Positions 8,233 through 57,880 of a stretch of DNA of 64,000 bases are shown here, piece by piece. The notes beneath the pieces are model-generated. The model did no database searches. It saw nothing but the letters and a program-made list of their open reading frames with translations, and was not told the origin of the DNA. The stretch's first letter is position 1; each line of letters opens with the position of its first letter. The translations under genes were made by a program, and so were the position numbers. This DNA comes from Escherichia phage vB_EcoM_SQ17: sequence record MW882907; one strand, given 5' to 3'.

Positions 8233-8652
8233 TTATGCAAAAGATGCTGGACAATATTTTTTGATTTGGAACTCAGGAACTACCATGAACTGCCCAGCGA
8301 AAACAATGTTATAAAGCTTAACACCATCTTCTACCCATTGGTCCGAAATAAAACCAGCAACTTGATTCGTTGTCCACGGTGTTCCATCTGTCGCAGCGGC
8401 AATGGTGAACTCGTAGTCTTTTACAACTAAAACTGATCTGCCCAGTTTCCATTTGAACGCTTTTTCTTCTGGTTCAATAAATTGGCTTTTAACGTAACCA
8501 ATGTTACCATCGGCGTCACGAACTTTAACTTGGTTACGACCAAAAACCGGATCACTCACAGAAAGAACTTCAACCAACTTCCCGGCAACTTTAGAGCGAG
8601 AAGCAACAGATACATATACGTAATCACCTGTAGAGAGATTTACAATATTCAT
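8233..8652 (-). CDS. hypothetical protein, member A of a tandem paralog triplet
   Basis: 139 aa; C-terminal GFISDQWVEDGVKLYNIVFAGQFMVVPE shared with the two ORFs upstream. Confidence 0.6.
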   Translation of the reverse strand: MNIVNLSTGDYVYVSVASRSKVAGKLVEVLSVSDPVFGRNQVKVRDADGNIGYVKSQFIEPEEKAFKWKLGRSVLVVKDYEFTIAAATDGTPWTTNQVAGFISDQWVEDGVKLYNIVFAGQFMVVPEFQIKKYCPASFA

Positions 8653-8661
8653 AATAATTCC

Positions 8662-9117
8662 TTAAGCTTTACGAGGAGACACATAACGAGTGATTTCAGA
8701 TTCTTTAACAACTCGGAAGTCACCTAAGAATACGATATTGTATAACTTTTCACCATCTTCAACCCATTGGTCACTAATGAAGCCACACATAGTATCAGTT
8801 TTGCTTGGATAACCGTATTCATCGATGAAGTCAAATTCTTTATCAGTCTGGAATTCAACACCTTTACACAAGGCCCATTTGAACTGTGCATTAGGTTCAG
8901 TAGAAGCAAAATGAGCGCTCACAGGAGTTTCCAAGAATTTAGGACTTACGTAAGCGTGCTGAGTATCCTGACGTCCAAAACTAGGAATGATTCGAACTTT
9001 AACTTCTTTAATGCGTCCCATGCCATTTGTGCGAAGTCCTACCACTTCAACCAGACGACCTGCGGCTTTAGACCGGGATGCAGTTGATACACGCTTAATT
9101 TCACCAATAGTAATCAT
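8662..9117 (-). CDS. hypothetical protein, member B of a tandem paralog triplet
   Basis: 151 aa; GFISDQWVEDGEKLYNIVFLGDFRVVKE; N-terminal STASRSKAAGRLVEV also similar to member A. Confidence 0.6.
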   Translation of the reverse strand: MITIGEIKRVSTASRSKAAGRLVEVVGLRTNGMGRIKEVKVRIIPSFGRQDTQHAYVSPKFLETPVSAHFASTEPNAQFKWALCKGVEFQTDKEFDFIDEYGYPSKTDTMCGFISDQWVEDGEKLYNIVFLGDFRVVKESEITRYVSPRKA

Positions 9118-9146
9118 AATTTTTCTCTCTTTGTTAAATTGAATTC

Positions 9147-9176
9147 ATTATACTCCATCCATCCTTGGATGTACAA
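9147..9176 (-). promoter_or_regulatory. early promoter with inverted-repeat spacer (-35 TTGTAC, -10 TATAAT)
   Basis: minus strand TTGTAC-atccaaggatggatgga-gTATAAT upstream of ORF 8662-9117. Confidence 0.5.
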
Positions 9177-9178
9177 CA

Positions 9179-9673
9179 TTAATTTAGAATATTAACTACT
9201 GCACTACGTGGAACCACACTAAAATCACCGGCATGAACAACGTTCAGAAGTTCAACCCCATCTTCAATCCACTGGTCAGTTACCCATCCATTTACTGGAC
9301 CATCGAATGGGCGTCGAATTGAAACATATTTACACAATAAATCAGTAGGCTCAATAGGCTTAATCAGAGTACCGTACATACAAACGATATCCATATCAAA
9401 GTGGAGACCATCTTTAACAGGTGCTTCTTCAATCAACAGTTCAAAGTCGGTGCTTGGGATGGCAGTAGTAGAAATTGTACCGTATGAATTTTTAATTTCT
9501 AAGAATAACCAAGGGCCTTCAACTTGTTTAATGAAGTTAACAATAGTGAAACTATTACCTTGAGTGGCACCTAAAATTTCACAAAACTTTTCATAAGCTC
9601 GCACTGAAGCACCGTACCAGTTGATTTGTTTTTCGTCTTTCAGGATGTAAGTAGCCATAGTATTGATATTCAT
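9179..9673 (-). CDS. hypothetical protein, member C of a tandem paralog triplet
   Basis: 164 aa; GWVTDQWIEDGVELLNVVHAGDFSVVPR matches the shared C-terminal motif. Confidence 0.6.
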   Translation of the reverse strand: MNINTMATYILKDEKQINWYGASVRAYEKFCEILGATQGNSFTIVNFIKQVEGPWLFLEIKNSYGTISTTAIPSTDFELLIEEAPVKDGLHFDMDIVCMYGTLIKPIEPTDLLCKYVSIRRPFDGPVNGWVTDQWIEDGVELLNVVHAGDFSVVPRSAVVNILN

Positions 9674-9704
9674 AATGTTTTTCCTGTTTGGTTAAGATAG
9701 AAAG

Positions 9705-9734
9705 ATTATACTCCAACCATCCTTGGTTGTAAAC
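9705..9734 (-). promoter_or_regulatory. early promoter (-35 GTTTAC, -10 TATAAT) with CAACCA-N4-TGGTTG inverted repeat in spacer
   Basis: minus strand GTTTAC-aaccaaggatggttggag-TATAAT; about 48 nt nearly identical to the cassette at 52405-52455. Confidence 0.55.
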
Positions 9735-9739
9735 TGGTT

Positions 9740-10417
9740 TTATCGCTGTTTTACACTTAACGGGTCAGGATTCTCAGGGACATCTTCAAGGCCAAGCGCA
9801 TAACGCTGAGCATATTTTAACATCAAAATATCTTTAGCACAATCATGAATACTATCATGGGCAACGAATCCTTTTAGCGTACCCATCGGTAATGGACACA
9901 TACTTAATCCTCGTGTCAACGAGTAAGCTTCGATTGCCGTACGAATATCACGTTGAGCCCAGAATTTAACCGGTTCTAATTTATCAGTATCAATCTCTGG
10001 TTCAGGAACACCTTCATCACGATAGAGGTCACGAATCAAATCGACCAATATCGGGAAGTCAAAGCTCATACCACGGCACCACATCTGTGATTTCCATTGG
10101 TCAACTTTATTAGCTCGGCAATAATCTAAAAAGATTTTAATGCCTTCAAGCGTAGTGACATCGTCTTCAGACGGAGCCAAGTTTTTACGTGCTTCAGCCG
10201 ATTGTTCTTTCCACCATTTCATAGTGGATTTAGCGAAAACTCGCTTACCTTTCTGAGAAGCTAAATTAAATTTAATTCGCTTACCTCGTTGAACAAGTTC
10301 TTCAAATGATTCAACAACTTCAGGGTCGGAATTATATGCAATAACCGCAAGGTCAATAACAGCCGCTTTTGATGTATTGCCGAATGTTTCAAAATCTATA
10401 ATAACATCAGTGCTCAT
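9740..10417 (-). CDS. dexA: exonuclease A (DEDDh 3'-5' exonuclease)
   Basis: 225 aa; N-terminal VIIDFETFG exonuclease motif I; size and position immediately downstream of dda match T4 DexA. Confidence 0.85.
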   Translation of the reverse strand: MSTDVIIDFETFGNTSKAAVIDLAVIAYNSDPEVVESFEELVQRGKRIKFNLASQKGKRVFAKSTMKWWKEQSAEARKNLAPSEDDVTTLEGIKIFLDYCRANKVDQWKSQMWCRGMSFDFPILVDLIRDLYRDEGVPEPEIDTDKLEPVKFWAQRDIRTAIEAYSLTRGLSMCPLPMGTLKGFVAHDSIHDCAKDILMLKYAQRYALGLEDVPENPDPLSVKQR

Positions 10418-45845: not shown

Positions 45846-47150
45846 TGGTGTTTAACCCTATGCATGATTTCTTTATTTTTACCGAGATTAAATCCGCGTT
45901 CGTTCGGATTTCCCAAATAACCGCATGTTCTTCTTATAGTATTCATCTTTTTAGGATCACTTTCTCCACAAACTGAACAAACAAATCCGTTTTCAGTAGG
46001 AGTCATTTCATGGGTACTTCCACATGTAAAACATTTATCTACTGGCATATTAACACCAAAATAATCTAAATGTTGTGCAGCATAATCCCACACGGCCTCA
46101 AGACCTTTTAGGTTATTTTTCATATCAGGAAGTTCAACATAAGAAATGTGACCGCCTGTCGCAATGAAATGATATGGGGCTTCGCGAGAAATCTTTTCAA
46201 ACGGAGTAATATTTTCTTCTACTGAAACATGGAAACTATTAGTGTACCAGCCTTTATCAGTAACATCTTTTACACTTCCATATTTTTCGGTATCAAGTTT
46301 ACAGAAGCGATAGCACAGGTTTTCAGCAGGAGTAGAATACAAACTAAAAGCGAATCCGGTTCTTTCAGTCCATTGTTTAAGATGAATATTCATTTTAGTT
46401 AAAATTTCTTGTCCAATATCACGACCGACAAGAATATTCAATTCGTGAATACCAATGTATCCCAAAGACACTGAACTTCTACCGTTTTTAAATAACTCAA
46501 TTATATCGTCATCAGGTTTAAGACGAACACCGAATGCACCTTCTTGGTAAAGAATAGGAGCAACAGTAGCTTTAACACCCTTTAAAGAACTAATTCTGCA
46601 CATCAATGCTTCAAAACACAGATCCATTCGTTCATTGAATAATTCAACAAATTTCTGTTCATTGAATTGTGTTCCAATATAAGAATCTAACGCAATACGA
46701 GGAAGATTCAGTGTTACAACACCAAGATTATTACGTCCATCAAGAATTTCATTACCAGTCGAATCTTTCCATACACTCAAGAAACTACGGCAACCCATTG
46801 GAGAAACAGGAACAGATGAACCAGTGATAGCTTTATTATTCTTAACTGAAATAATATCAGGATACATTCTTTTGCTTGCACACTCTAGAGCAAGCTGCTT
46901 AATATCGTAGTTCGGGTCGTCTTTATAAAGATTGACACCCTCTTCAACGAACATAACAAGTTTAGGGAAAATAGGAGATATCCCATTGCGACCAAGACCT
47001 TTAATACGATTTTTCAGAATTGCTTTTTGAATCATTCGTTCAGTCCAGTCAGTTCCCGTACCAAATGTAATTGTTACAAAAGGCGTTTGTCCATTAGAGC
47101 TGAAAAGTGTATTTACTTCATCATTATATTCAGCATGAGTCGCAAATTCA
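45842..47150 (-). CDS. nrdD: anaerobic ribonucleotide reductase NrdD, exon 2 (3' splice boundary approximate)
   Basis: about 440 aa of class III RNR C-terminal region including the C-terminal zinc site CFTCGSTHEM...CSVCGE and glycyl-radical tail RTCGYLGNP; upstream limit set near the homing endonuclease stop. Confidence 0.7.
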
Positions 47151-47918
47151 TGCCCGTTTATATGAAACAACAAAATTTGGATAGTCCATAGATATGCAAC
47201 GTTCTTTTATAGTGCTAGGATGAAAATTTAGCGCTTTAGCTGCTTCTATATAAGACGTATACTTAATACCGTCAACAACCACATATTCAGGAACTTTATG
47301 AATAGTAGTCTTAATACTCAAAACAAGAGGATGAGTTTCGACTTCACTTTCAGTGCAATTTAAATATTCCGCTGCTTTTTTAAAACTTCTAAAAGTTTTA
47401 TTTTTAAGCTTTATCGATACTTGTTTTTTACTTTTTCGACTATTGATATTATTTTGCACATGTTCCTTAGATCTTCCGTTTTTAGCATAATATTCAGCTA
47501 CAGAAGATTTTATATTGTTTTTATGAGATTCGGATAACACTTTACCCTTATGAGCATCTCTTAATTTTTGAATATGTTCTTCAGTATCCGGATGCTTATA
47601 AAACTTTTTACCGCCTATGGATTTATTTAAACACTTTTTGCTATAAAAATATTTACGTATGACCTCTTCTTCATGTTTTAATGCATCTTTATAACTATCA
47701 AATGTTTTTAAAATTATCCATTTAGTAGGTGTATCAGTTTTTAAGCGTTCATTTATATACTTAGATGACGTTGTGTAAGTTTTCCAGTTTGTGGGCTTGT
47801 TTTTAATTGTTCTAAATTTTTTATAACCGATATAAATGTCACCATTAGAAAACTTAACTAAGTATGTAAATGCGTCTTTATCTTTTATTTTAGTACAACG
47901 TCTTTTTATCCATTTCAT
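47148..47918 (-). CDS. GIY-YIG homing endonuclease encoded within the nrdD group I intron (I-TevII-like)
   Basis: 256 aa; YLVKFSNGDIYIGY GIY-YIG motif; NUMOD3-like basic repeats; ATG preceded by GAGGTGAAACA; T4 has an intron ORF of similar size at this position. Confidence 0.75.
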   Translation of the reverse strand: MKWIKRRCTKIKDKDAFTYLVKFSNGDIYIGYKKFRTIKNKPTNWKTYTTSSKYINERLKTDTPTKWIILKTFDSYKDALKHEEEVIRKYFYSKKCLNKSIGGKKFYKHPDTEEHIQKLRDAHKGKVLSESHKNNIKSSVAEYYAKNGRSKEHVQNNINSRKSKKQVSIKLKNKTFRSFKKAAEYLNCTESEVETHPLVLSIKTTIHKVPEYVVVDGIKYTSYIEAAKALNFHPSTIKERCISMDYPNFVVSYKRA

Positions 47919-49212: not shown

Positions 49213-49392
49213 TTAATAAATGTTATAAAAGTCACGATGGAAACGTTTGTATTGGCGAATCATTCTTTTAGTAGGACGTGTTACCGAAATGATTGAAGTC
49301 CTCATGTTCGGATTGTTTGGAGCACCAATTATAACAAATTTCCAAGATTTTTGTCCGTTTGTTCTTTCGCCAAAAAATAATGCAGTTTTCAT
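49213..49392 (-). CDS. small basic protein (59 aa), paralog of 49817-49987; absent from ORF track
   Basis: hand translation MKTALFFGERTNGQKSWKFVIIGAPNNPNMRTSIISVTRPTKRMIRQYKRFHRDFYNIY; shares TNG/KNG ... RPTKR..R..KR.HR.FY with its paralog. Confidence 0.45.
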   Translation of the reverse strand: MKTALFFGERTNGQKSWKFVIIGAPNNPNMRTSIISVTRPTKRMIRQYKRFHRDFYNIY

Positions 49393-49816: not shown

Positions 49817-49987
49817 TCAATATTCTCTATAAAAGTTACGATGAGAACGTTTAGCTTTGCGAAGCTGACGTTTAGTAGGACGAACTGTAAATGGTTGTCC
49901 AGAGAAAAAATTCGGATCGGTTTTAATAAGCAAATACCAATCATGCTTGCCATTTTTTAATAAACGGTATAATAATTTAACTTGCAT
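49817..49987 (-). CDS. small basic protein (56 aa), paralog of 49213-49392
   Basis: start set to ATG at 49985-49987 (MQVKLLYRLLKNGKHDWYLLIKTDPNFFSGQPFTVRPTKRQLRKAKRSHRNFYREY). Confidence 0.45.
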   Translation of the reverse strand: MQVKLLYRLLKNGKHDWYLLIKTDPNFFSGQPFTVRPTKRQLRKAKRSHRNFYREY

Positions 49988-50115
49988 AATAATCTCTTCC
50001 CATTTCCATATCAATTAATTCATTTATTGAAGGTTCATCATAACACGTTTCTTCGTCATTGTAAACTGTTTCGACGTCTGGCTCGACTGTCTCCCATCGA
50101 GCCGAATACCACGGT

Positions 50116-50472
50116 TTAACCCCGGAGTTTATTGAGCTCTTCATAATCAATCCAGGATTCTAGCCCTGACGGCAGGTCACATTCAATGTTCCACAGAAGC
50201 TCTTCAATGGCTTGCAGGCGATTATATTCTTCAACGGTAATGGTAACCATTGGTGCAACCGGTTCTGCCTTTTTAACCATCATATCGTTCATCAGGACGT
50301 AAAGGTCATCACGAACAACAGTGTCGCTCCAACCCCATGATTTGGCTTCGTAAGCTAATGATGAAGGGAGCACATTTAAAACTTCAATAATAGTTGGAGC
50401 ATCAGGACCAAGTTCATTGGCACAAACTTCGTATACATCTTGGAAATCTTTAAGATTTAATGAATATGTCAT
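50116..50472 (-). CDS. hypothetical protein
   Basis: 118 aa ORF directly downstream of nrdC. Confidence 0.5.
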   Translation of the reverse strand: MTYSLNLKDFQDVYEVCANELGPDAPTIIEVLNVLPSSLAYEAKSWGWSDTVVRDDLYVLMNDMMVKKAEPVAPMVTITVEEYNRLQAIEELLWNIECDLPSGLESWIDYEELNKLRG

Positions 50473-50732
50473 TTAAAATATTCTCGTAGTTGGTCAAAGC
50501 CACCGATCGAAGTTCCATCAGGAGCAAACACTTGAGGCATAGTCAATCCGACTTGTGATTCACGTCCAAGCTTAACCAGAAGCTCAGCAATTTTCTCATC
50601 ATCAAAAACACCTTTTTCCGGCATAACATTAATGAATTCGAATGGTTGTTTCTTAACAGTCAGCAATCGTTTCGCATTATCACAATAAATGCATTTATGA
50701 ATAGTAGAGTCATACCCGTACACTTTAAACAT
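50469..50732 (-). CDS. nrdC: phage thioredoxin/glutaredoxin NrdC
   Basis: start set to MFKVYGYD; near-identical to remembered T4 NrdC including the CIYC active site. Confidence 0.85.
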   Translation of the reverse strand: MFKVYGYDSTIHKCIYCDNAKRLLTVKKQPFEFINVMPEKGVFDDEKIAELLVKLGRESQVGLTMPQVFAPDGTSIGGFDQLREYFK

Positions 50733-51138
50733 TATTTTTCCTTTCATCGATTAAATATGCAATGCCAAATACAATACATGTAATAAAACCTGTGATACAG
50801 ATAGAAACCAACAACACTGTACCAAAGAACCAAATCAAGTTATCTTTAGTAGTTTGTTTGATATCCATCTCACGAATTTCTATAGCTATCGTATCACCTT
50901 TATTCAGAAGCGTATAAAACGATGGCGATACACGCATGTCAAAAACTCGTCCTTGCTCATCTTTATAGACTGCAATAAATTCTAATTTAGAATATTTTCC
51001 TGTAGATTGGCCTGAGATTAATTCCACTACCTCCACAGGAATTACTTTAGTTTCCATGTAAGTATTCTGGCTGTTCCAAATGAATGGAATGATGGCAAAA
51101 ACTAAAGCTGCAATAAAACAACGAAGGCTATATCTCAT
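50725..51138 (-). CDS. membrane protein
   Basis: 137 aa with N- and C-terminal hydrophobic segments. Confidence 0.5.
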   Translation of the reverse strand: MRYSLRCFIAALVFAIIPFIWNSQNTYMETKVIPVEVVELISGQSTGKYSKLEFIAVYKDEQGRVFDMRVSPSFYTLLNKGDTIAIEIREMDIKQTTKDNLIWFFGTVLLVSICITGFITCIVFGIAYLIDERKNNV

Positions 51139-51443
51139 TATAATGTTCTCTCAAATTTGTGGAAGCATTTACGGCATTTCAATTTCAAGTTATCGGTGGT
51201 CCAGTTAACCAGCTGGACTTGGATAGTTCCACATTCCGGGCATGGATGTTTTGCTGCCGATTTGGCAGCATTTTCACGTCGTTCAACCATTTTCATTATT
51301 TCGTTCCATGCCGGAGGAACGAACTCTTCTTCACCGTGGATTTTATCTCGCTGAACAAATTCAATCTTTGAACTATCGTCAATAAACTTAACCAAGCCAT
51401 GATTAGTGCTCATATCAATATCCTCTAAAAGACGTAGTTTCAT
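51138..51443 (-). CDS. zinc-ribbon protein
   Basis: 101 aa; CPECG ... CRKC four-cysteine ribbon at the C-terminus. Confidence 0.5.
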   Translation of the reverse strand: MKLRLLEDIDMSTNHGLVKFIDDSSKIEFVQRDKIHGEEEFVPPAWNEIMKMVERRENAAKSAAKHPCPECGTIQVQLVNWTTDNLKLKCRKCFHKFERTL

Positions 51444-52393
51444 TATAACACCTCAATGACATTTCGTAAACCATCAGCTTTTGCATTCAGAGCTTTTAAT
51501 GATTTAGTTTGTTTTGCAATCTGGGCTTCGACTTCTTTCAGACGAGATTTGAGATATTCGCGTTCTTCTCTTAAATTATCAACTTTTTCTACTTTAGGTT
51601 CTTTAATAGGCTTAGGCTTATACTCGTTAGGGTTCTTCAACTTAATTTGAATGCGAGAACTGTATAACATTGAATCGTTATCTTCGGATTCGTCGAACGT
51701 TTCAACAACATCCATAGTCTCTAACAATGTAATAAGTTTATAAGACAACGAACGAATAGTTTTGTTGTGCTTATTAATTTCTTCGGCTTTCATGGTACCG
51801 AGATTACGTGAGTAGTAATAAGGAACCTGGATATCAATTGACAATGATGCGTTACCATTACCAGTTGGTTTGAATACTGCAGTAACCCAATCTTTAACAT
51901 GAACTTTATTTGTACGACCATCACCGCCTGTGAATAATTTACGTGAATGTTTAAAAAGCATATTCACTTGATTATTAAATTCACAAGCAAATTTATCAGC
52001 AAATTTAGTTTCAGGAATGGTAGATAACCAATCAGCCAAATGAGTCTTTTTAACATCATTAACAATAGTGAATTCAACCAAATCGGTTTTAGATGTCACA
52101 GATTTAATAAAGCTCGGCTTCATAAAGTTTTTAATGTTATCGCGAGCTACAGTAGAAGATAATAAACGAGAACGTTTGAACCATTGAAGCAGTGTCCCTA
52201 ATGAATGAGAATATGCATTCTGAGTATCTTTACAGATATGATTTTCTTGGCCTGTGTATGTACCAAAATCGCGAAGAATACCACTTACTACAACTCGGTG
52301 TGGAACATCAAATCCTAATGAACCAGAAGCACGTTGGGCATGAACGTTAGCGATAAGACCTGCAAAATAATCAATGTAATGTGAACGTGTCAT
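51443..52393 (-). CDS. hypothetical protein with C-terminal coiled coil
   Basis: 316 aa; heptad-rich C-terminal 60 aa; own early promoter. Confidence 0.5.
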   Translation of the reverse strand: MTRSHYIDYFAGLIANVHAQRASGSLGFDVPHRVVVSGILRDFGTYTGQENHICKDTQNAYSHSLGTLLQWFKRSRLLSSTVARDNIKNFMKPSFIKSVTSKTDLVEFTIVNDVKKTHLADWLSTIPETKFADKFACEFNNQVNMLFKHSRKLFTGGDGRTNKVHVKDWVTAVFKPTGNGNASLSIDIQVPYYYSRNLGTMKAEEINKHNKTIRSLSYKLITLLETMDVVETFDESEDNDSMLYSSRIQIKLKNPNEYKPKPIKEPKVEKVDNLREEREYLKSRLKEVEAQIAKQTKSLKALNAKADGLRNVIEVL

Positions 52394-52420
52394 AATATTT
52401 TCCTCTCGTTAAGATAGAAA

Positions 52421-52450
52421 GATTATACTCCAACCATCCTTGGTTGTAAA
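52421..52450 (-). promoter_or_regulatory. early promoter cassette, near-identical copy of 9705-9734
   Basis: minus strand GTTTAC-aaccaaggatggttggag-TATAAT with the same flanking leader as the copy at 9.7 kb. Confidence 0.55.
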
Positions 52451-52455
52451 CTGAT

Positions 52456-53391
52456 TTATGATTTTAATGCATTCATTGCGTTAAAAAGTTTAGAGTACTG
52501 CAACTGGAGCTTGGTAACTACTTGTTGAGCATCACGAAGCTTAGCTTGTGCTTTGTCAAGTTCAACAGACAGTTGGTCCACAGTGGCTTTGATTTGATTA
52601 TAATAGTAATCTTCGGCAGGAAGAAGACCGTTAGAGATTTCCAGTTTAGTCGACGGTGAAGTGTATATAGATGGAGCAGTAAAATATGCACCTTGAACTT
52701 CAGCATTGCCAATTGGGGTTGTAGTAATTGACGCTTCGAACGTTGCATTTTCCTTTTTAAGATTTTGATAGTATTCAGAGTCTTTGTGCCACCATGGCGC
52801 AGGAACCTTTTTACCAATAGATACACGAGCCTGGATAGCGATATGGCCCTTATTCTTGATAGGGTTGATAATATTAAGCTCACGAGAATAAATTGCTTTA
52901 ATCTGGTGGATATTATCACCTAACACTTCCAACGCTTGGTGGAATACACGAGCAACGTTATCATTCTTAGGTTTATACGTAAGAGTGAACTCGTTCTCAC
53001 TGATAACCATGATTTCTAACTTATCGTAAGTATATTTCAAATGTTTCATGTTAATTGCTTGAGGACGAATACGAGAAGCAATGGCCATCAGATTGTTAAG
53101 GTTATTCCTGAACTGCTTAGCGAAATATTGTCCTTCACCGCCAATACAAAAATTACGAAGTTTCTGTTTGGCTAATAAACGGCTGAACTCACCATTTTTA
53201 ATGAACTCTTTAACGGGTGTGTTAGTAACGCATTCAAATTGAGTAAACTTACGAGAATTAATCCCATAATATGAACAGATTTCCTCAATCTCTTCAGGAG
53301 TCTTTACAGGCATACGGATAGGATTAGGTCCTGGGGTATATGCGTTCGAGGTAAATTCTTTGATAAGTTCTCTACGTGTAATAGAAGCCAT
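52456..53391 (-). CDS. hypothetical protein with C-terminal coiled coil
   Basis: 311 aa; C-terminal VDQLSVELDKAQAKLRDAQQVVTKLQLQYSKL. Confidence 0.5.
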   Translation of the reverse strand: MASITRRELIKEFTSNAYTPGPNPIRMPVKTPEEIEEICSYYGINSRKFTQFECVTNTPVKEFIKNGEFSRLLAKQKLRNFCIGGEGQYFAKQFRNNLNNLMAIASRIRPQAINMKHLKYTYDKLEIMVISENEFTLTYKPKNDNVARVFHQALEVLGDNIHQIKAIYSRELNIINPIKNKGHIAIQARVSIGKKVPAPWWHKDSEYYQNLKKENATFEASITTTPIGNAEVQGAYFTAPSIYTSPSTKLEISNGLLPAEDYYYNQIKATVDQLSVELDKAQAKLRDAQQVVTKLQLQYSKLFNAMNALKS

Positions 53392-53417
53392 TTTATATTC
53401 CTCATGTTGAAAAATTT

Positions 53418-53446
53418 ATTATACTCCAACCATCCTTGGTTGTACA
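53418..53446 (-). promoter_or_regulatory. early promoter cassette with inverted-repeat spacer (-35 TGTACA, -10 TATAAT)
   Basis: minus strand TGTACA-accaaggatggttggag-TATAAT upstream of ORF 52456-53391. Confidence 0.5.
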
Positions 53447-54442
53447 TCATTCCTTAAGAAGTTTTACTACTTGAATAAGATTAGCTCGTTCCGTTTTATT
53501 TTTACCATTTAAGCCTGCTAATCGTGAGATTTCATCGTCAGTCTGTTGAATAGTTACATTAAGTTCGTTAATCAAAGCTTCAAAGTATTTGATTTGCTCA
53601 GCATGTTTTGATTCAAATTTCTGAACCGGAATAACGTCTTGGTTTAGTTCATCAATAAGGTCTTTAAGAGCATCTTCTTGGTTGATATCATATTCAACTT
53701 CTTTTATTTCTTCAACGAGCTCGTCTTTATATCTAACGTCTTTTAGTCCTGGTGCTGGTCCTGAAATCTCTTCTTTAAGAGTACAAACATATCCAATACG
53801 GTATCCAATGCCGTCTCGCTTGATAACAACTTCGTCGATAAATCCACAATGTTTAAGACCAGAGCCGATTAGGTCAAAATATCCTTGACGTCGTCCTTCA
53901 AACGTTACACGAACTACTAAGACAGTTTTACCTGCAACCTTTTGAAGCTCACATTTATAAAAGTCTGTTGAACCTGAATAACGTGGATGAGTTTTAAAGT
54001 TCATCTGACGATCTAGGCCCATTTGTAAGCGTGCTGATACGGCCATAAAACGTGTTTGGTTCTCGTTAAGATGAGCAACAATCCATTTCAAAGGCATTTT
54101 ACACTGTTCACGACCGAACAAATCAGTACGTCCTAGATTACGCAGAATGTTGTTAGAGTTAATCATCGACAGAACGTTAAGTTTATTCAGCGCGCTGAAG
54201 ATTCCATCGGCCATTGATTTTCCGTAACCTTTACACGCTTTAATAAGCGCTCGCGGTAGATTAGTATAAATTTCAGACGGCATATGAAAATCAAATTTAC
54301 TAGTCAGTAATTGATGAACTTGGATAGCAATTTGCTCATAATTAAGTGCTCTGCGATCATTATGGTCTTTAAACCATACTTTAATCTGTGAAGCACATAA
54401 ACCGTTAATTTCATGTTTTACCGCATCAGATGTAATGCTCAT
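53447..54442 (-). CDS. hypothetical protein with C-terminal coiled coil
   Basis: 331 aa ORF. Confidence 0.5.
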   Translation of the reverse strand: MSITSDAVKHEINGLCASQIKVWFKDHNDRRALNYEQIAIQVHQLLTSKFDFHMPSEIYTNLPRALIKACKGYGKSMADGIFSALNKLNVLSMINSNNILRNLGRTDLFGREQCKMPLKWIVAHLNENQTRFMAVSARLQMGLDRQMNFKTHPRYSGSTDFYKCELQKVAGKTVLVVRVTFEGRRQGYFDLIGSGLKHCGFIDEVVIKRDGIGYRIGYVCTLKEEISGPAPGLKDVRYKDELVEEIKEVEYDINQEDALKDLIDELNQDVIPVQKFESKHAEQIKYFEALINELNVTIQQTDDEISRLAGLNGKNKTERANLIQVVKLLKE

Positions 54443-54504
54443 AACTATTTCCTCAGATTGAATTGGAACTCAAAACCATTATAACCCGTCCTTGGGTAAA
54501 GCGT

Positions 54505-55032
54505 TTATGCGTGAACCGTCTTTAAACGTTCTTCAAATTTCCGAAGAGTACTAATACGTTCTGCTTTCTGTTTTGTATAGTTTGCAATACGTTCTGAAGT
54601 GAGAGCGTATCGTTCATTTACTGTTTCTTTCATGAAGTCAGGGATTTCACGAGAAGCTTTAATTTCATCAAACTTATCGAGTACTGCCTGGTCTTCAGCG
54701 ATTAAATTTTCGTACATCTCGATATCTTTCTTGATAAACTCGATATCTTCCTGTGTTACTTTGGATAAACGAGATGCTTTATCCTTTTTGTACTGCTCGT
54801 TAGTTTCACGAGACCAGAATAATGTACGTTTTTTGTTAGTGTTTTTGTAGACTTCCACAATTCCAACTGAATCGATGATAGCAATCCAATTCCAGCGAGA
54901 TTTGAAAATCTGACCTCCGTCCACGGTAATCTCGTTACCATAAGCAACGTCATTAAAGAACTTGCTTTGTGCTTCAGATTTAAATTTACCGTCGTTATAA
55001 TTTACCAGGTTGAAAATATCTTTAGCGTTCAT
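54505..55032 (-). CDS. hypothetical protein
   Basis: 175 aa ORF. Confidence 0.5.
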   Translation of the reverse strand: MNAKDIFNLVNYNDGKFKSEAQSKFFNDVAYGNEITVDGGQIFKSRWNWIAIIDSVGIVEVYKNTNKKRTLFWSRETNEQYKKDKASRLSKVTQEDIEFIKKDIEMYENLIAEDQAVLDKFDEIKASREIPDFMKETVNERYALTSERIANYTKQKAERISTLRKFEERLKTVHA

Positions 55033-55090
55033 GTTTTACCTCCAGTAGTTGATAGGTCTATAATAACATAACCATAGACCTTGTAAACAA

Positions 55091-55480
55091 CTAAAAGAAA
55101 CTTTTTTCGGTATTTTTTCCACTGAACCAAACCGATTTAGGAATTTTCTGTAATTTTTCAGATTTAAGTTTCTCTTCCTGTTCTTTCTTGTATGCATCCT
55201 TGTCGTACTGGAACAACTCTAGGGCATTCTTTTGTAGACGGTCTAAGGTAATTAAGGCTTTAGTTTTTCCTTTCAAGGAAGAGTCCTGGCGAACCTCCTC
55301 GCTATATTGCATCGTAGAACTAACCATACGATGAGCATACAGTTCGACTGCGGCTTTAATTTTTTGCATAAAATCCATAACATAGCCCTCTTTGATTTGT
55401 ACAACATTATTTTTAAATATTTCTATGCCCTCAGTAGGTTCCTGGTGTCCTTCTTTGAGGTAAGCCATATGATTATTCAT
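55091..55480 (-). CDS. hypothetical protein
   Basis: 129 aa ORF. Confidence 0.45.
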   Translation of the reverse strand: MNNHMAYLKEGHQEPTEGIEIFKNNVVQIKEGYVMDFMQKIKAAVELYAHRMVSSTMQYSEEVRQDSSLKGKTKALITLDRLQKNALELFQYDKDAYKKEQEEKLKSEKLQKIPKSVWFSGKNTEKSFF

Positions 55481-55517
55481 CTTTATGGCTTTTGTTACCT
55501 CAGAACTTCCTATAAGC

Positions 55518-56519
55518 TTATTTCAGTAAAGTAACTTCAGAGATTTCCTCCCAACCATCTTTATCAGTTGAAATAAAATCTGCTACGTAAAGAGCCGTAC
55601 GTAATGATACATTGCGAAGACGAGATACGTTAGCCTTCATCCAGGACAATGCTTTATACGTTTCTGCATCTGTCAGACCACGTTTCTGCATCATGTCAGT
55701 AGATAATATTACATCTTCAACTCGAACCATAATCTCTTCATTAGAGTGTACTCCAAGGTCGAGATACACTGAACGAGATACTAAAGCTTGAAGGTGTGGG
55801 GCAAGTTTCGAACCGCGTTCTAACTCTTTATCGATATCAACGTTTGTAATGAAAACGATAGTACCTTCAAACTCAAATTCTTTATCAATACCCTTATCAT
55901 CGAGATAAGATGACGCAGTGCTCCAACAAACTTTGCGTTTATCTCCAGTATCTAATGCTGCTTTAAGAAGGTTCAAGATGTCCATATCTGAGAATACGTC
56001 AACGTCGTCGATTAAGAGAACGCTGTCTGCATCACGGTTGAGCCAAAGTTGTTCGTAAAGGCCAATACCAGAGATTTTACCATTAATGCTTTTGTATTTG
56101 ATGAAACCGTTATCATTAGCATTATTAAGTGCTTTATCCAGAGAATACGTCTTACCAATACCAGCTGCACCTGAAATAATGAGTGAACGAATTTTGCCAT
56201 CGATAATGCCATTCGTCATCATGTTCATTACTTTAAAGCGTTTGTTGATACGAGTTTTCATATCTTCAGTGCTTTCAACAACTGCAACTGGTGATGTCTC
56301 AGCTCCTTCCATTATGATGTCTGATTTGAAGACCCATACTCCACGTTCAGAACCATCGATCATAACGAAAATTTTACCGTCACCTAAGTGGGAACATTCA
56401 GGATTAAGCTTTGCCGGGAACCATGTCTTTGTGGCAACATAAGAACCAGAGATTTCGTTATTACGATAGATACCTTTTTTGATTTGAACGTTGAACATTT
56501 TATTCTCCAATTTACTCAT
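55518..56519 (-). CDS. P-loop ATPase (AAA-like)
   Basis: 333 aa; Walker A GAAGIGKT and Walker B LLIDDVD. Confidence 0.6.
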   Translation of the reverse strand: MSKLENKMFNVQIKKGIYRNNEISGSYVATKTWFPAKLNPECSHLGDGKIFVMIDGSERGVWVFKSDIIMEGAETSPVAVVESTEDMKTRINKRFKVMNMMTNGIIDGKIRSLIISGAAGIGKTYSLDKALNNANDNGFIKYKSINGKISGIGLYEQLWLNRDADSVLLIDDVDVFSDMDILNLLKAALDTGDKRKVCWSTASSYLDDKGIDKEFEFEGTIVFITNVDIDKELERGSKLAPHLQALVSRSVYLDLGVHSNEEIMVRVEDVILSTDMMQKRGLTDAETYKALSWMKANVSRLRNVSLRTALYVADFISTDKDGWEEISEVTLLK

Positions 56520-56567
56520 TTCGTTTCGATAGGTCTATAATAACATGTTTAAAGCAAAAGTAAACAA

Positions 56568-56783
56568 TTATTTGCGACGAGATTTTTTGGTAAGAGGTTG
56601 AAAGAACACTGCTTTACCTGCAGGAGTCAAAGTAACTCGTAATGCATTACCTATTCCCAAGGATGCTTTAACTAAACCTTTAGCTTTCAGTTCACCGAAT
56701 GCTTGACGCTGGTCTGCATCACGAGTGTTAACCATAAGACCTTTATCACCTGCTTCACGAATCATTTCTAACATTTTGGTTTT
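56568..56783 (-). CDS. hypothetical protein (71 aa)
   Basis: start set to internal ATG (MKTKMLEMIREAG...) preceded by CAAGAGGAGAA; the ORF-track extension runs through the promoter. Confidence 0.45.
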   Translation of the reverse strand, partial: KTKMLEMIREAGDKGLMVNTRDADQRQAFGELKAKGLVKASLGIGNALRVTLTPAGKAVFFQPLTKKSRRK

Positions 56784-56871
56784 CATTTTGTTCTCCTCTT
56801 GTTTTGATAGGTCTATAATAACATATCCTAAAAGCATGTACACTACTTTTTAAAAATATTTTGACCCCCTA

Positions 56872-56889
56872 AAGGGCCCGAAGGCCCTT
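56872..56889 (-). terminator. terminator-like hairpin (AAGGGCC-TTCG-GGCCCTT) without an immediate U-run
   Basis: perfect 7-bp stem and tetraloop immediately after the stop of ORF 56891-57880. Confidence 0.35.
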
Positions 56890-56890
56890 A

Positions 56891-57880
56891 TCATTTATAG
56901 TATGAATTGTGGTTTTCTAAGTAGACTTGCTCAAGGAAATCATCCCAGAAACTCATATCTACTTTTTGTTGCATACAGTTCTTAGCGGCTTGTTCTGACG
57001 CATGTTCAACTTGGTCAACTATATCTTCTAAGAATTCCTGTACGGTTTTAAACGTATGTTTACCAAGCTTAACATCGAGAATAAATGGAGCATCCTGAAG
57101 TGGGTAAACCAGGTCTCCGGTTTTGTAAATTTCCAATAGTTGAAGTCCACCGCGACATGCATGACTCAGTGCTTTCCAGTCAATACCTTCGTTAGCTTCT
57201 GCCTTACGAGCACGTTCACCATAGTTCTCTTCTAGTTTAACAAGGATGGCATTGAACTCTTTATTGGTTAACGTGTCTTGGAATTTACGGTCCAACAGAT
57301 TATAGAATGTTTGCTTACCTGTTTTCTCGTTTTCGGTTTCAACCCATGAAGCAAATTCACCTACAGGCAGAACATTCTTCATATGTGATAAACGAATTAC
57401 TGCACCATTATCAAAGTATTGTCCCCATTCATTAGAACGTTTAAGGGCTTGACGAAGAACAGCCAGTCGAGAACCCTTGACACCGTATTTAGAAGCTTGC
57501 TTACGGACATACCCTAAATAAGATTTCATGTTAGTGGTATAGAAACGAGACCTGTTATCTTGAATATACTTCCATACATCAGGCAAATCAGATTTAACTA
57601 CTAAACTTGGTGGAGTGTGAAGCATATCTAATGCGACAGTTTCGCCATCCGCAGCTAGTTTAAAGAAATATTTGAGACTATACAACTCATGGTCCACGTC
57701 GTCTTTTGTGTTCTTCGAAGCGGTGTTGTTAGTGTTCTTGCTCATATGTTCTTTAACGTTACCTGTCAAGATATCACGAGCATGAGGGACGTAAATTTCT
57801 TTAAAATCAACGTCAGATTCAGGAGTAGACGTTCCATAAAGGTGGCTACCAAAGTAGCCTTTCATAATTGTTTTCATCAT
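56891..57880 (-). CDS. Pol-beta-superfamily nucleotidyltransferase of unknown specificity
   Basis: 329 aa; N-terminal GS-x9-SDVDF nucleotidyltransferase motif (FGSHLYGTSTPESDVDFKEIYV). Confidence 0.55.
   Translation of the reverse strand: MMKTIMKGYFGSHLYGTSTPESDVDFKEIYVPHARDILTGNVKEHMSKNTNNTASKNTKDDVDHELYSLKYFFKLAADGETVALDMLHTPPSLVVKSDLPDVWKYIQDNRSRFYTTNMKSYLGYVRKQASKYGVKGSRLAVLRQALKRSNEWGQYFDNGAVIRLSHMKNVLPVGEFASWVETENEKTGKQTFYNLLDRKFQDTLTNKEFNAILVKLEENYGERARKAEANEGIDWKALSHACRGGLQLLEIYKTGDLVYPLQDAPFILDVKLGKHTFKTVQEFLEDIVDQVEHASEQAAKNCMQQKVDMSFWDDFLEQVYLENHNSYYK

What the first reader, a model, noticed from the sequence alone, without database searches (positions are those of the whole stretch)
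51443..54442. Three consecutive genes for 310 to 330-aa proteins ending in coiled coils, each with its own early promoter
N-terminal domains differ but all three end in heptad-rich helices and are separately promoted by the repeated promoter cassette. Independent promoters and a shared architecture suggest a diversifying family of host-interaction proteins.
Basis: inference. Interest (0 to 1): 0.4.

Follow-up and report, generated by a model that had tools for sequence, protein, structure and literature searches.

The report
Tandem NrdC.3/5/6 accessory genes, T4-like phage
These three neighbouring phage genes are very diverged copies of one gene family, known in phage T4 as nrdC.3, nrdC.5 and nrdC.6; T4 nrdC.5 is already known to disarm a bacterial anti-phage defence, so this is probably a small set of host-range genes and not a new kind of system.

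Summary
The window comes from an RB69/JS09-like T-even phage (Mosigvirus). The three minus-strand ORFs exist exactly as described: 316, 311 and 331 aa. They correspond to T4 nrdC.3 (56% identity), nrdC.5 (Pfam DUF7235, full length) and nrdC.6.

They are in fact homologous. Profile-profile comparison gives 97.6% probability (E 3e-12) for NrdC.3/4 vs NrdC.5, and 84% (E 8e-6) for NrdC.6 vs NrdC.5. Both signals lie in the N-terminal part. They persist when the last 65 residues are removed and are absent from control families and decoys.

All three proteins end in a long helix with a heptad pattern. The pattern is clear in two and shorter and interrupted in the third.

Only two genes carry the identical 26-nt early-promoter cassette. 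The third has a shortened derivative that fits the MotA middle-promoter consensus.

The three proteins are 23-56% identical to their T4 counterparts, against 77-90% for flanking genes. Copy number ranges from 1 to 4 across T4-like genera.

T4 nrdC.5 is published as counteracting the defence sirtuin Dsr1. A diversifying family of host-interaction proteins is therefore the best reading, but it is an inference for these three genes. The GenBank label 'thioredoxin' is an artefact.

The parts
51443..52393 (-). wA: 316-aa protein, ortholog of T4 NrdC.3 (family NrdC.3/NrdC.4, phrog_1435)
   Evidence: ORF. 56% identity to T4 NrdC.3 over the full length. phrog_1435 E 7e-103; T4 NrdC.3 and NrdC.4 match the same family.
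52456..53391 (-). wB: 311-aa protein, Mosigvirus NrdC.5 (Pfam DUF7235, phrog_2351)
   Evidence: DUF7235 E 1.2e-112, 376.8 bits against a cut-off of 30, profile positions 1-307 of 307. T4 NrdC.5 matches the same model at 5e-126. The RB69 homolog is named NrdC.5. 23% identity to T4 NrdC.5.
53447..54442 (-). wC: 331-aa protein, NrdC.6 family (phrog_2257)
   Evidence: phrog_2257 E 8.5e-127. T4 and JS98 NrdC.6 are in the same family. tblastn 29-34% identity to Tequatrovirus nrdC.6.
52422..52450 (-). Early-type promoter cassette upstream of wA: TTTACA-N17-TATAAT, with a small hairpin in the spacer
   Evidence: 11 of 12 consensus match. Exact 26-nt cassette. 98% identical over 50 nt to the copy at 9691-9740. 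Hairpin -6.9 kcal/mol.
53418..53446 (-). Early-type promoter cassette upstream of wB: TGTACA-N17-TATAAT, same 26-nt core
54478..54503 (-). Shortened cassette upstream of wC: CGCTTTA-N13-TATAAT, candidate MotA-dependent middle promoter
   Evidence: Sequence. Consensus (a/t)3TGCTTtA-N11-13-TataAT from PMC1524935. The same arrangement (CGCTTTA-N12-TATAAT) precedes T4 nrdC.7/nrdC.6 and JS98 nrdC.6.
51446..51601 (-). C-terminal heptad-repeat helix of wA (residues 265-316)
   Evidence: Heptad score above 95% of shuffles. AF2 helix 275-315.
52459..52611 (-). C-terminal heptad-repeat helix of wB (residues 261-311)
   Evidence: Heptad score above 95% of shuffles. T4 NrdC.5, the T4 member of wB's family, gives weak sub-threshold matches to the coiled-coil families CENP-F_leu_zip and DUF4164.
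53450..53602 (-). C-terminal helices of wC (residues 281-331): about 3.5 heptads, a Gly-rich break, then a second helix
   Evidence: AF2 helices 281-309 and 316-330. Best 28-residue heptad window of the protein starts at residue 283, marginal against shuffles. Weak hits to Mer2 and zf-C4H2.
9705..9730 (-). Further exact copy of the 26-nt cassette, upstream of ORF 9179-9673
9147..9172 (-). Further copy of the cassette (2 mismatches that keep the hairpin paired), upstream of ORF 8662-9117

Best explanation
The three genes are the Mosigvirus versions of T4 nrdC.3, nrdC.5 and nrdC.6. They are old, strongly diverged tandem paralogs of one T4-like-phage superfamily.

Architecture. Each protein has an N-terminal helical region with two conserved motifs: (S/N)xLLSxxxAxxxLxNF, and F..N....L...A.RL..G.D. 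This is followed by a small alpha/beta region, a variable linker and a C-terminal amphipathic heptad helix that probably drives oligomerisation.

Expression. They are non-essential accessory genes in the nrdC-to-nrdC.10 stretch, a region whose gene content differs between phage genera. wA and wB are transcribed from their own copies of a repeated early-promoter cassette. wC is transcribed by read-through and probably from a MotA-type middle promoter.

Likely mechanism (inferred). These are non-enzymatic binding proteins made before late proteins appear, and they neutralise host defence sensors. The NrdC.5 lineage, which includes wB, counteracts the SIR2-type NADase Dsr1. It plausibly does so by occupying the Dsr1 sensor before the late capsid protein can trigger it. 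wA and wC would be aimed at other host targets, or at other variants of the same one.

Shown here: gene identity, paralogy, architecture, promoter anatomy and fast divergence.
Shown elsewhere, for T4 only: nrdC.5 rescues infection of a Dsr1-carrying host.
Inferred: anti-defence activity of wA, wB and wC; direct binding; oligomerisation.
For: Identity.

Paralogy.
- hhalign, NrdC.3/4 family vs NrdC.5 family: 97.6% probability, E 3e-12, 237 columns.
- The same comparison with the last 65 residues removed: 96.7%, E 4e-10.
- NrdC.6 family vs NrdC.5 family: 83.7%, E 8e-6, covering wC residues 27-147.
- Control families (NrdC.10, NrdC.11, phrog_4750): probability below 1%, P at least 0.06.
- N-terminal-only jackhmmer against a database with 6 decoys per protein recovered all NrdC.3.4.5 and .6 family members before the first decoy.
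- An N-terminal superfamily HMM built without wB or wC ranked them at 6e-7 and 2e-6 among 83 window ORFs. The next hit scored 3e-3.
- The low-confidence AF2 models of wA and wC show the same order of secondary-structure elements. Their Foldseek hits in BFVD overlap: NrdC.3 of phage fPS-65, the 346-aa protein of Serratia phage CBH8, and E5EYP0.

No conserved catalytic-type residues. Conserved positions are hydrophobic plus a G-D pair.

Fast divergence. Identity to T4 is 56%, 23% and 29% for the three proteins, against 77-90% for gp49, NrdC, NrdC.8 and NrdC.10.

Variable copy number across genera.

Function of the T4 homolog. See PMC9391042. The Dsr1 sensor recognises the major capsid protein (PMC12803255).
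Against: - wB is only 23% identical to T4 NrdC.5, so anti-Dsr1 activity cannot be transferred with confidence.
- Nothing is known about the function of NrdC.3, NrdC.4 or NrdC.6.
- The wA-to-wC link is only transitive. The direct profile comparison gives P 0.04.
- The AF2 models are poor (pLDDT about 54), and there is no similarity to any solved structure.
- The N-terminal parts are basic (pI 8.4-9.4), which would also fit nucleic-acid binding.
- The coiled coil is a prediction. For wC the heptad signal is weak.
Confidence: 0.6

Rival explanations
1. The three genes are paralogs as described, but they are general host-takeover or nucleic-acid-binding early proteins (acting on DNA, RNA or the transcription machinery) and not inhibitors of defence systems. 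The anti-Dsr1 effect of T4 NrdC.5 would then be indirect.
For: - The N-terminal parts are basic (pI 8.4-9.4).
- Expression is early or middle.
- The eLife study shows genetic rescue only, not binding.
- The N-terminal region is helical.
Against: - No match to any DNA- or RNA-binding family in Pfam, NCBIfam or PDB.
- The genes are dispensable.
- Divergence is extreme and copy number varies, which is more typical of arms-race genes than of conserved takeover functions.
Confidence: 0.25
2. The three genes are unrelated ORFans that merely share a convergent C-terminal coiled coil, as in the first reader's picture of different N-terminal domains.
For: - Pairwise BLAST between wA, wB and wC finds nothing.
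- Shallow profiles find nothing.
- PHROGs and Pfam keep the three families separate.
Against: Deeper profiles link the N-terminal regions with the coiled coil removed, collinearly and through the same two motifs. Controls and decoys stay at background.
Confidence: 0.07
3. They are thioredoxin or glutaredoxin-like redox proteins, as many GenBank records label them.
For: 'thioredoxin' appears as the product name in many phage records.
Against: - No thioredoxin, glutaredoxin or other redox-family match in Pfam or NCBIfam.
- No CxxC motif in any of them.
- The same label sits on every nrdC.x gene, including an AAA ATPase and a nucleotidyltransferase. It is therefore propagated from the gene names, which only record map position next to nrdC.
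Confidence: 0.01

Closest known systems
T4 NrdC.5 (Pfam DUF7235 / phrog_2351), the T4 gene that overcomes the defence sirtuin Dsr1 (Srikant et al., eLife 2022, PMC9391042)
   Same: wB matches the same Pfam model over its full length. It has the same position in the nrdC-nrdC.10 interval, the same architecture with a C-terminal heptad helix, and early expression.
   Different: Only 23% identity. wB is 29 residues shorter, with a different and variable linker (residues about 223-250). Anti-Dsr1 activity has not been tested for the Mosigvirus protein. A single-sequence search of 1.8 billion proteins does not even reach the T4 protein.
T4 NrdC.3 and NrdC.4 (phrog_1435) and T4 NrdC.6 (phrog_2257), uncharacterised early ORFs
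   Same: wA is the NrdC.3 ortholog (56% identity). wC belongs to the NrdC.6 family. Gene order is the same.
   Different: The window phage has no NrdC.4 copy, so three paralogs against four in T4. wC is 56 residues longer than the T4 reference NrdC.6, which is frameshifted at its C-terminus.
DSAD1, the phage inhibitor of DSR2 (PMC10981675, PMC11087589 and others listed)
   Same: A possible functional analogy only: a phage protein that binds a defence sirtuin and blocks activation by a late structural protein.
   Different: No sequence or structural relationship was tested or is claimed. DSAD1 acts on DSR2 of Bacillus. The mechanism of NrdC.5 is unknown.
PeSL cassettes (promoter-early stem-loops) of T4-type phages (Arbiol et al. 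2010, PMC2839356; Comeau et al. 2014, PMC4122927)
   Same: Repeated early promoters of the form TTTACW-N17-TAYWAT combined with a small stem-loop. They sit in front of variable accessory genes in hyperplastic regions. Middle-promoter versions (PmSL) are also described.
   Different: Here the hairpin lies inside the -35/-10 spacer, not just upstream of the promoter. It has a conserved AAGGAY loop and a covarying stem. Terminator or recombination activity was not tested.

Membership tests
Pfam DUF7235 (NrdC.5 family) | Full-length match to PF23882 above the gathering score | tested here: met
   wB: 376.8 bits against a cut-off of 30, profile positions 1-307 of 307. T4 NrdC.5: 420.6 bits. wA and wC do not match this model.
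Pfam DUF7235 (NrdC.5 family) | Counteracts Dsr1, the only experimentally known property (shown for T4 NrdC.5) | not testable with these tools
   Needs plating or complementation on a Dsr1-carrying host (PMC9391042).
phrog_1435 (NrdC.3/NrdC.4) | Full-length HMM match | tested here: met
   wA E 7e-103, residues 1-316 against profile 1-333 of 334. T4 NrdC.3 5.5e-101 and NrdC.4 5.6e-168.
phrog_2257 (NrdC.6) | Full-length HMM match | tested here: met
   wC E 8.5e-127, residues 1-331 against profile 1-303 of 303. T4 NrdC.6 6.4e-126.
Single NrdC.3-NrdC.6 superfamily (proposed here) | Homology of the N-terminal regions, independent of the coiled coil | tested here: met
   NrdC.3/4 vs NrdC.5: 97.6%, E 3e-12. 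NrdC.6 vs NrdC.5: 83.7%, E 8e-6. N-terminal-only and decoy controls. The direct NrdC.3/4 vs NrdC.6 comparison is weak (P 0.04), so that link is transitive.
Single NrdC.3-NrdC.6 superfamily (proposed here) | The same three-dimensional fold | tested here: inconclusive
   The AF2 models have pLDDT 53.8 and 53.9. They show the same order of helices and hairpins and share BFVD hits, but TM-scores are 0.15-0.34.
Coiled-coil proteins | Heptad a/d hydrophobic periodicity in a long helix | tested here: met
   wA and wB exceed 95% of shuffles. wC is marginal and interrupted. Long terminal helices in AF2.
Coiled-coil proteins | Oligomerisation through the helix | not testable with these tools
   Needs SEC-MALS, crosslinking or multimer modelling.
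Thioredoxin/glutaredoxin (GenBank label) | Thioredoxin-fold family match and CxxC active site | tested here: not met
   No thioredoxin, glutaredoxin or other redox-family match in Pfam or NCBIfam. No CxxC motif.
PeSL (promoter-early stem-loop) cassette | Repeated TTTACW-N17-TAYWAT promoter with an associated stem-loop in front of accessory genes | tested here: met
   Four copies in the window against 0 expected. Promoter match. Hairpin of -5 to -8 kcal/mol with a covarying stem. The hairpin lies inside the spacer, unlike the published layout.
PeSL (promoter-early stem-loop) cassette | Terminator activity and a role in recombinational shuffling | not testable with these tools
   No T-run follows the hairpin. 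The terminator scan found none in the three intergenic spaces.
MotA-dependent middle promoter | (a/t)3TGCTTtA, then 11-13 nt, then TataAT | tested here: inconclusive
   Upstream of wC: aaaCGCTTTA-N13-TATAAT. The GCTT core is present, with one mismatch. It is conserved upstream of T4 nrdC.7 and JS98 nrdC.6. Activity was not tested.
DSAD1-like anti-DSR proteins | Sequence or structural similarity to DSAD1 | not tested
   The DSAD1 sequence was not retrieved. PDB-wide Foldseek with the wC model gave no hit at E of 0.001 or better.

The most novel reading that the evidence does not exclude
The whole NrdC.3-NrdC.6 superfamily, with 1-4 tandem copies in T4-like phages from enterobacterial to Acinetobacter hosts, is an array of oligomeric decoy inhibitors. 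Each paralog would be tuned to a different host immune sensor; Dsr1 is the one example known. The array would be expanded, contracted and reshuffled by recombination at the repeated promoter-hairpin cassettes. Those cassettes also flank a second paralog trio at 8233-9673.
Probability: 0.3. Interest if true: 0.6.

Novelty: new member of a known kind. Interest (0 to 1): 0.35.

Why it matters
Showing that NrdC.3, NrdC.4, NrdC.5 and NrdC.6 are one family turns a single published observation (T4 nrdC.5 defeats Dsr1) into a testable set of candidate anti-defence genes. That set is present in hundreds of therapeutic-type coliphages. It suggests which genes to delete or swap when host range on defence-rich E. 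coli matters.

The work also corrects a widespread 'thioredoxin' misannotation.

It remains an incremental result. The genes, their Pfam and PHROG families, the promoter cassettes and the anti-Dsr1 phenotype were all already on record.

Tried and rejected
- Pairwise BLAST among the three proteins found nothing.
- hhalign with shallow, close-homolog profiles (Neff 1.1-1.5) found nothing. The signal appeared only after profiles were deepened with homologs from 12 phage loci.
- The search for homologous proteins returned only close relatives.
- phmmer of wB against 1.84 billion representatives found only its own cluster, a 67-aa fragment of it (P0057), and a spurious 16-fold match to a repetitive 3071-aa protein, P0058. 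That match is low-complexity and helical and was rejected.
- A MAFFT alignment of all three families together put wA out of register with the two motifs. It was therefore not used for structure prediction.
- AlphaFold2 of wA (17 sequences) and wC (12 sequences) gave pLDDT of about 54. Only the order of secondary-structure elements and the terminal helices were used.
- Foldseek against the PDB gave no hit at E of 0.001 or better. The small LAGLIDADG and GyrA motif matches fall in the low-confidence part of the model and were dismissed.
- PDB sequence searches gave nothing.
- NCBIfam gave only sub-threshold coiled-coil noise.
- The phrog_4750 family occupies the nrdC.6 slot in Karamvirus, Jiaodavirus, Winklervirus and Gelderlandvirus and in the unclassified Citrobacter phage Ursula. 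It shows no relationship to the superfamily.
- A superfamily-HMM hit to ORF 47148-47918 (E 3e-3) was treated as noise.
- Papers mentioning nrdC.8 (DRT1 study) and nrdC.10/nrdC.11 carried no information on these three genes.
Full report
**Context.** The window is 95-98% identical over the region to Mosigvirus (RB69/JS09-like) coliphages. The finding lies in the minus-strand early region nrdD - 49 (endonuclease VII) - pin - nrdC - nrdC.x - nrdC.10 - nrdC.11.

**Observation.** The three ORFs are exactly as described: 51443-52393 (316 aa, called wA here), 52456-53391 (311 aa, wB) and 53447-54442 (331 aa, wC). Each has a GAGG-type ribosome-binding site. tblastn finds wA in 653 phage records, wB in 132 and wC in 741. 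They are real, conserved genes.

**Identity.**
- wA is the ortholog of T4 NrdC.3 (56% identity, full length). It matches phrog_1435, and so do both T4 NrdC.3 and T4 NrdC.4.
- wB matches Pfam DUF7235 end to end (E 1e-112), as does T4 NrdC.5 (E 5e-126). Both match phrog_2351. RB69 calls its copy NrdC.5.
- wC matches phrog_2257 together with T4 and JS98 NrdC.6.
- The 'thioredoxin' product name in many GenBank records also sits on an AAA ATPase and a nucleotidyltransferase. None of the three proteins has a CxxC motif or a match to any thioredoxin, glutaredoxin or other redox family. The label is propagated from the map-position names 'nrdC.N'.

**Are the three related?**

Pairwise BLAST and shallow profiles say no. 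By eye, however, two motifs recur in the same order in all of them:
- motif 1: SRLLSSTVARDNIKNF / FSRLLAKQKLRNF / LSMINSNNILRNL;
- motif 2: FNNQVNMLFKHSRKLFTGGD / FRNNLNNLMAIASRIRP / LNENQTRFMAVSARLQMGLD.

I fetched the nrdC.10-to-nrdC interval from 12 T4-like phages and built deeper family profiles. The phages were T4, AR1, mogra, JS98, CHI14, JD18, Ursula, EnA02, VPA32, a Proteus phage, an Acinetobacter phage and a Cronobacter phage.

With the session's own hhalign tool:
- NrdC.3/4 family vs NrdC.5 family: 97.6% probability, E 3.1e-12, 237 columns.
- NrdC.6 family vs NrdC.5 family: 83.7%, E 8e-6, covering wC residues 27-147 and wB residues 11-113, that is, the N-terminal region with both motifs.
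- NrdC.6 vs NrdC.3/4 directly: weak (P 0.043), although the top local alignment is motif 1 in the correct register.

Local controls:
- Removing the last 65 residues (the coiled coil) leaves the results unchanged: 96.7%, E 4e-10, and 54%, P 1.3e-4.
- Three unrelated neighbouring families give probability below 1% and P of at least 0.06.
- N-terminal-only jackhmmer in a database with six decoys per protein recovers every NrdC.3.4.5 and .6 family member, plus the Karamvirus and Acinetobacter homologs, ahead of the first decoy.
- An N-terminal superfamily HMM that contained neither wB nor wC ranks them 2nd and 3rd among all 83 window ORFs of at least 100 aa, at 6e-7 and 2e-6. The next hit scores 3e-3.

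The homology is in the N-terminal part. wA and wB are securely linked. wB and wC are probably linked. wA and wC are linked through wB.

**Structure.** The AlphaFold2 models are poor (pLDDT 53.8 and 53.9). They nevertheless show the same order of elements:
- four to five N-terminal helices (pLDDT 70-87);
- a long helix at about 128-150;
- a beta-hairpin at about 162-180;
- a helix, then a second hairpin;
- a disordered linker;
- a long C-terminal helix.

In BFVD, each model's hits, after its own family, include members or positional equivalents of the other families. The wC model hits NrdC.3 of phage fPS-65 (E 4.5e-3) and the 346-aa protein of Serratia phage CBH8 (1.9e-2). The wA model hits the same CBH8 protein (1.2e-4). 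Both hit E5EYP0. TM-scores are low, so this is supportive only. Nothing in the PDB resembles them. Positions conserved across the superfamily are hydrophobic plus a G-D pair, with no catalytic-looking residues. That fits a binding protein.

**Coiled coils.** wA 265-316 and wB 261-311 exceed 95% of shuffles in an a/d heptad score. wC has about 3.5 heptads (284-308), a Gly-rich break and a further helix. Its signal is marginal, although its best window is again at the C-terminus. Weak sub-threshold Pfam hits to coiled-coil families (Mer2 and zf-C4H2 for wC; CENP-F leucine zipper and DUF4164 for T4 NrdC.5) agree. Oligomerisation is inferred.

**Promoters.**
- The exact 26-nt cassette ACAACCAAGGATGGTTGGAGTATAAT precedes wA and wB. 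It occurs twice more in the window, against 0 expected.
- It is a T4-type early promoter, T(T/G)TACA-N17-TATAAT.
- Upstream of wC the same core is shortened. TTTACC and TATAAT are 11 nt apart, which rules out sigma-70 -35 recognition.
- aaaCGCTTTA-N13-TATAAT instead fits the T4/RB69 MotA consensus (PMC1524935). The same layout precedes T4 nrdC.7/nrdC.6 and JS98 nrdC.6.
- No terminators lie between the genes, so read-through transcripts are also expected.
- These cassettes belong to the published class of repeated promoter/stem-loop modules (PeSL, PmSL) associated with variable genes in T4-type phages (PMC2839356, PMC4122927).

**Evolution.** Identity between this phage and T4 is 56%, 23% and 29% for the three proteins. 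It is 90%, 90%, 83% and 77% for gp49, NrdC, NrdC.8 and NrdC.10. Copy number varies:
- T4 and AR1 have four copies (.3, .4, .5, .6).
- This phage has three (.3, .5, .6).
- JS98 has three (.4, a .5-like copy, .6).
- Winklervirus, Jiaodavirus, Gelderlandvirus and Karamvirus have one superfamily member plus an unrelated ~260-aa gene.
- An Acinetobacter phage has one copy.

Within Mosigviruses, the linker of wB (about residues 223-250) is replaced or carries indels.

**Function.** The only experimental datum comes from Srikant et al. (PMC9391042). A T4 deletion mutant lost the ability to plate on ECOR17 because of that strain's dsr1, and nrdC.5 supplied in trans restored plating on MG1655 carrying dsr1. 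A 2026 preprint reports that the Dsr1 TPR sensor recognises phage major capsid protein (PMC12803255). An inhibitor made early, before the late trigger appears, fits the promoter arrangement.

I therefore favour the view that these are oligomeric, non-enzymatic anti-defence or host-range proteins. wB would be the candidate anti-Dsr1 factor of this phage, and wA and wC would have other targets. This is an inference. wB shares only 23% identity with the T4 protein. The basic N-terminal parts leave a nucleic-acid-binding or host-takeover role open.

**Verdict.** The 'different N-terminal domains' and 'three early promoters' statements need correction. The genes, their families, the cassettes and the T4 phenotype are all on record. 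What is added here is the unification of NrdC.3, .4, .5 and .6 into one superfamily, plus the promoter details. Interest is modest.

Noticed in passing
window 52422-52447, 53418-53443, 9705-9730, 9147-9172, 54484-54496 (minus strand); L003 (T4) upstream of nrdC.3, nrdC.4 and nrdC.7; L004 (JS98) upstream of nrdC.4 and nrdC.6: The promoter cassettes contain a small hairpin between the -35 and -10 elements. Its loop core (AAGGAT or AAGGAC) is constant, while the stem changes with compensation: AACCA/TGGTT, ATCCA/TGGAT, ACCC/GGGT, GCC/GGC, CCACA/TGTGG and TACCA/TGGTA. Free energy is -5 to -8 kcal/mol, and for most copies it is lower than 97-98% of shuffles. It lies upstream of the cassette's own transcription start, so it would be transcribed only by read-through. 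Its role (RNA processing or stability, a DNA-level signal, or recombination) is unknown.
   Followed up: partly
window 8233-8652, 8662-9117, 9179-9673 (minus strand): A second trio of tandem paralogs (139, 151 and 164 aa) shares a C-terminal motif, GFISDQWVEDG.KLYNIVF.G.F.VV. It lies just downstream of an ORF (9740-10417) that I take, from memory only, to be the T4 dexA exonuclease. Two of the three are preceded by the same 26-nt promoter cassette as wA and wB, which links the cassette to tandem gene families.
   Followed up: partly
L003 (T4 NC_000866) 9997-10066, between nrdC.6 and nrdC.5: The T4 reference nrdC.6 (275 aa) is frameshifted at its C-terminus relative to AR1, JS98 and this window. 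The 70-nt 'intergenic' stretch encodes SKAKSEREKLIKIVDLLKS*, which matches the terminal helix of the longer homologs. T4 NrdC.6 therefore lacks the last helix, or the record carries an error.
   Followed up: partly
window 50725-57880, and GenBank records such as MN850579: Every nrdC.x gene is labelled 'thioredoxin' in many deposited genomes, including the AAA ATPase nrdC.10 and the nucleotidyltransferase nrdC.11. This is a name-propagation artefact. Only nrdC itself (50469-50747) is a glutaredoxin/thioredoxin.
   Followed up: yes
window 54505-55032 (minus strand): The next gene upstream, the NrdC.8 ortholog (175 aa, 83% identical to T4), also has its best heptad window at its C-terminus and has its own early promoter (TTTACA-N16-TATTAT). 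Only noise-level similarity to the superfamily was seen.
   Followed up: partly
window 49213-49392 and 49817-50014 (minus strand); repeat at 49224-49278 and 49828-49882: Two small ORFs (59 and 65 aa), 600 nt apart, share a 55-nt repeat (78% identity) that encodes a basic C-terminal tail, RPTKR..R..KR.HR.FY..Y. One overlaps the 5' part of the 183-aa pin-like ORF region.
   Followed up: no
window 55091-55480 (minus strand): The first-ATG ORF for the NrdC.9/DUF7203 homolog is 129 aa. The DUF7203 match covers only residues 36-129, and relatives annotate about 95 aa, so the true start is probably the internal ATG near 55378.
   Followed up: no
protein P0058: A 3071-aa repetitive metagenomic protein matches wB residues 223-283 sixteen times (E 1e-18 summed). 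The repeats are T/A/N/G-rich followed by a short helical segment. This was judged compositional, not homology.
   Followed up: partly
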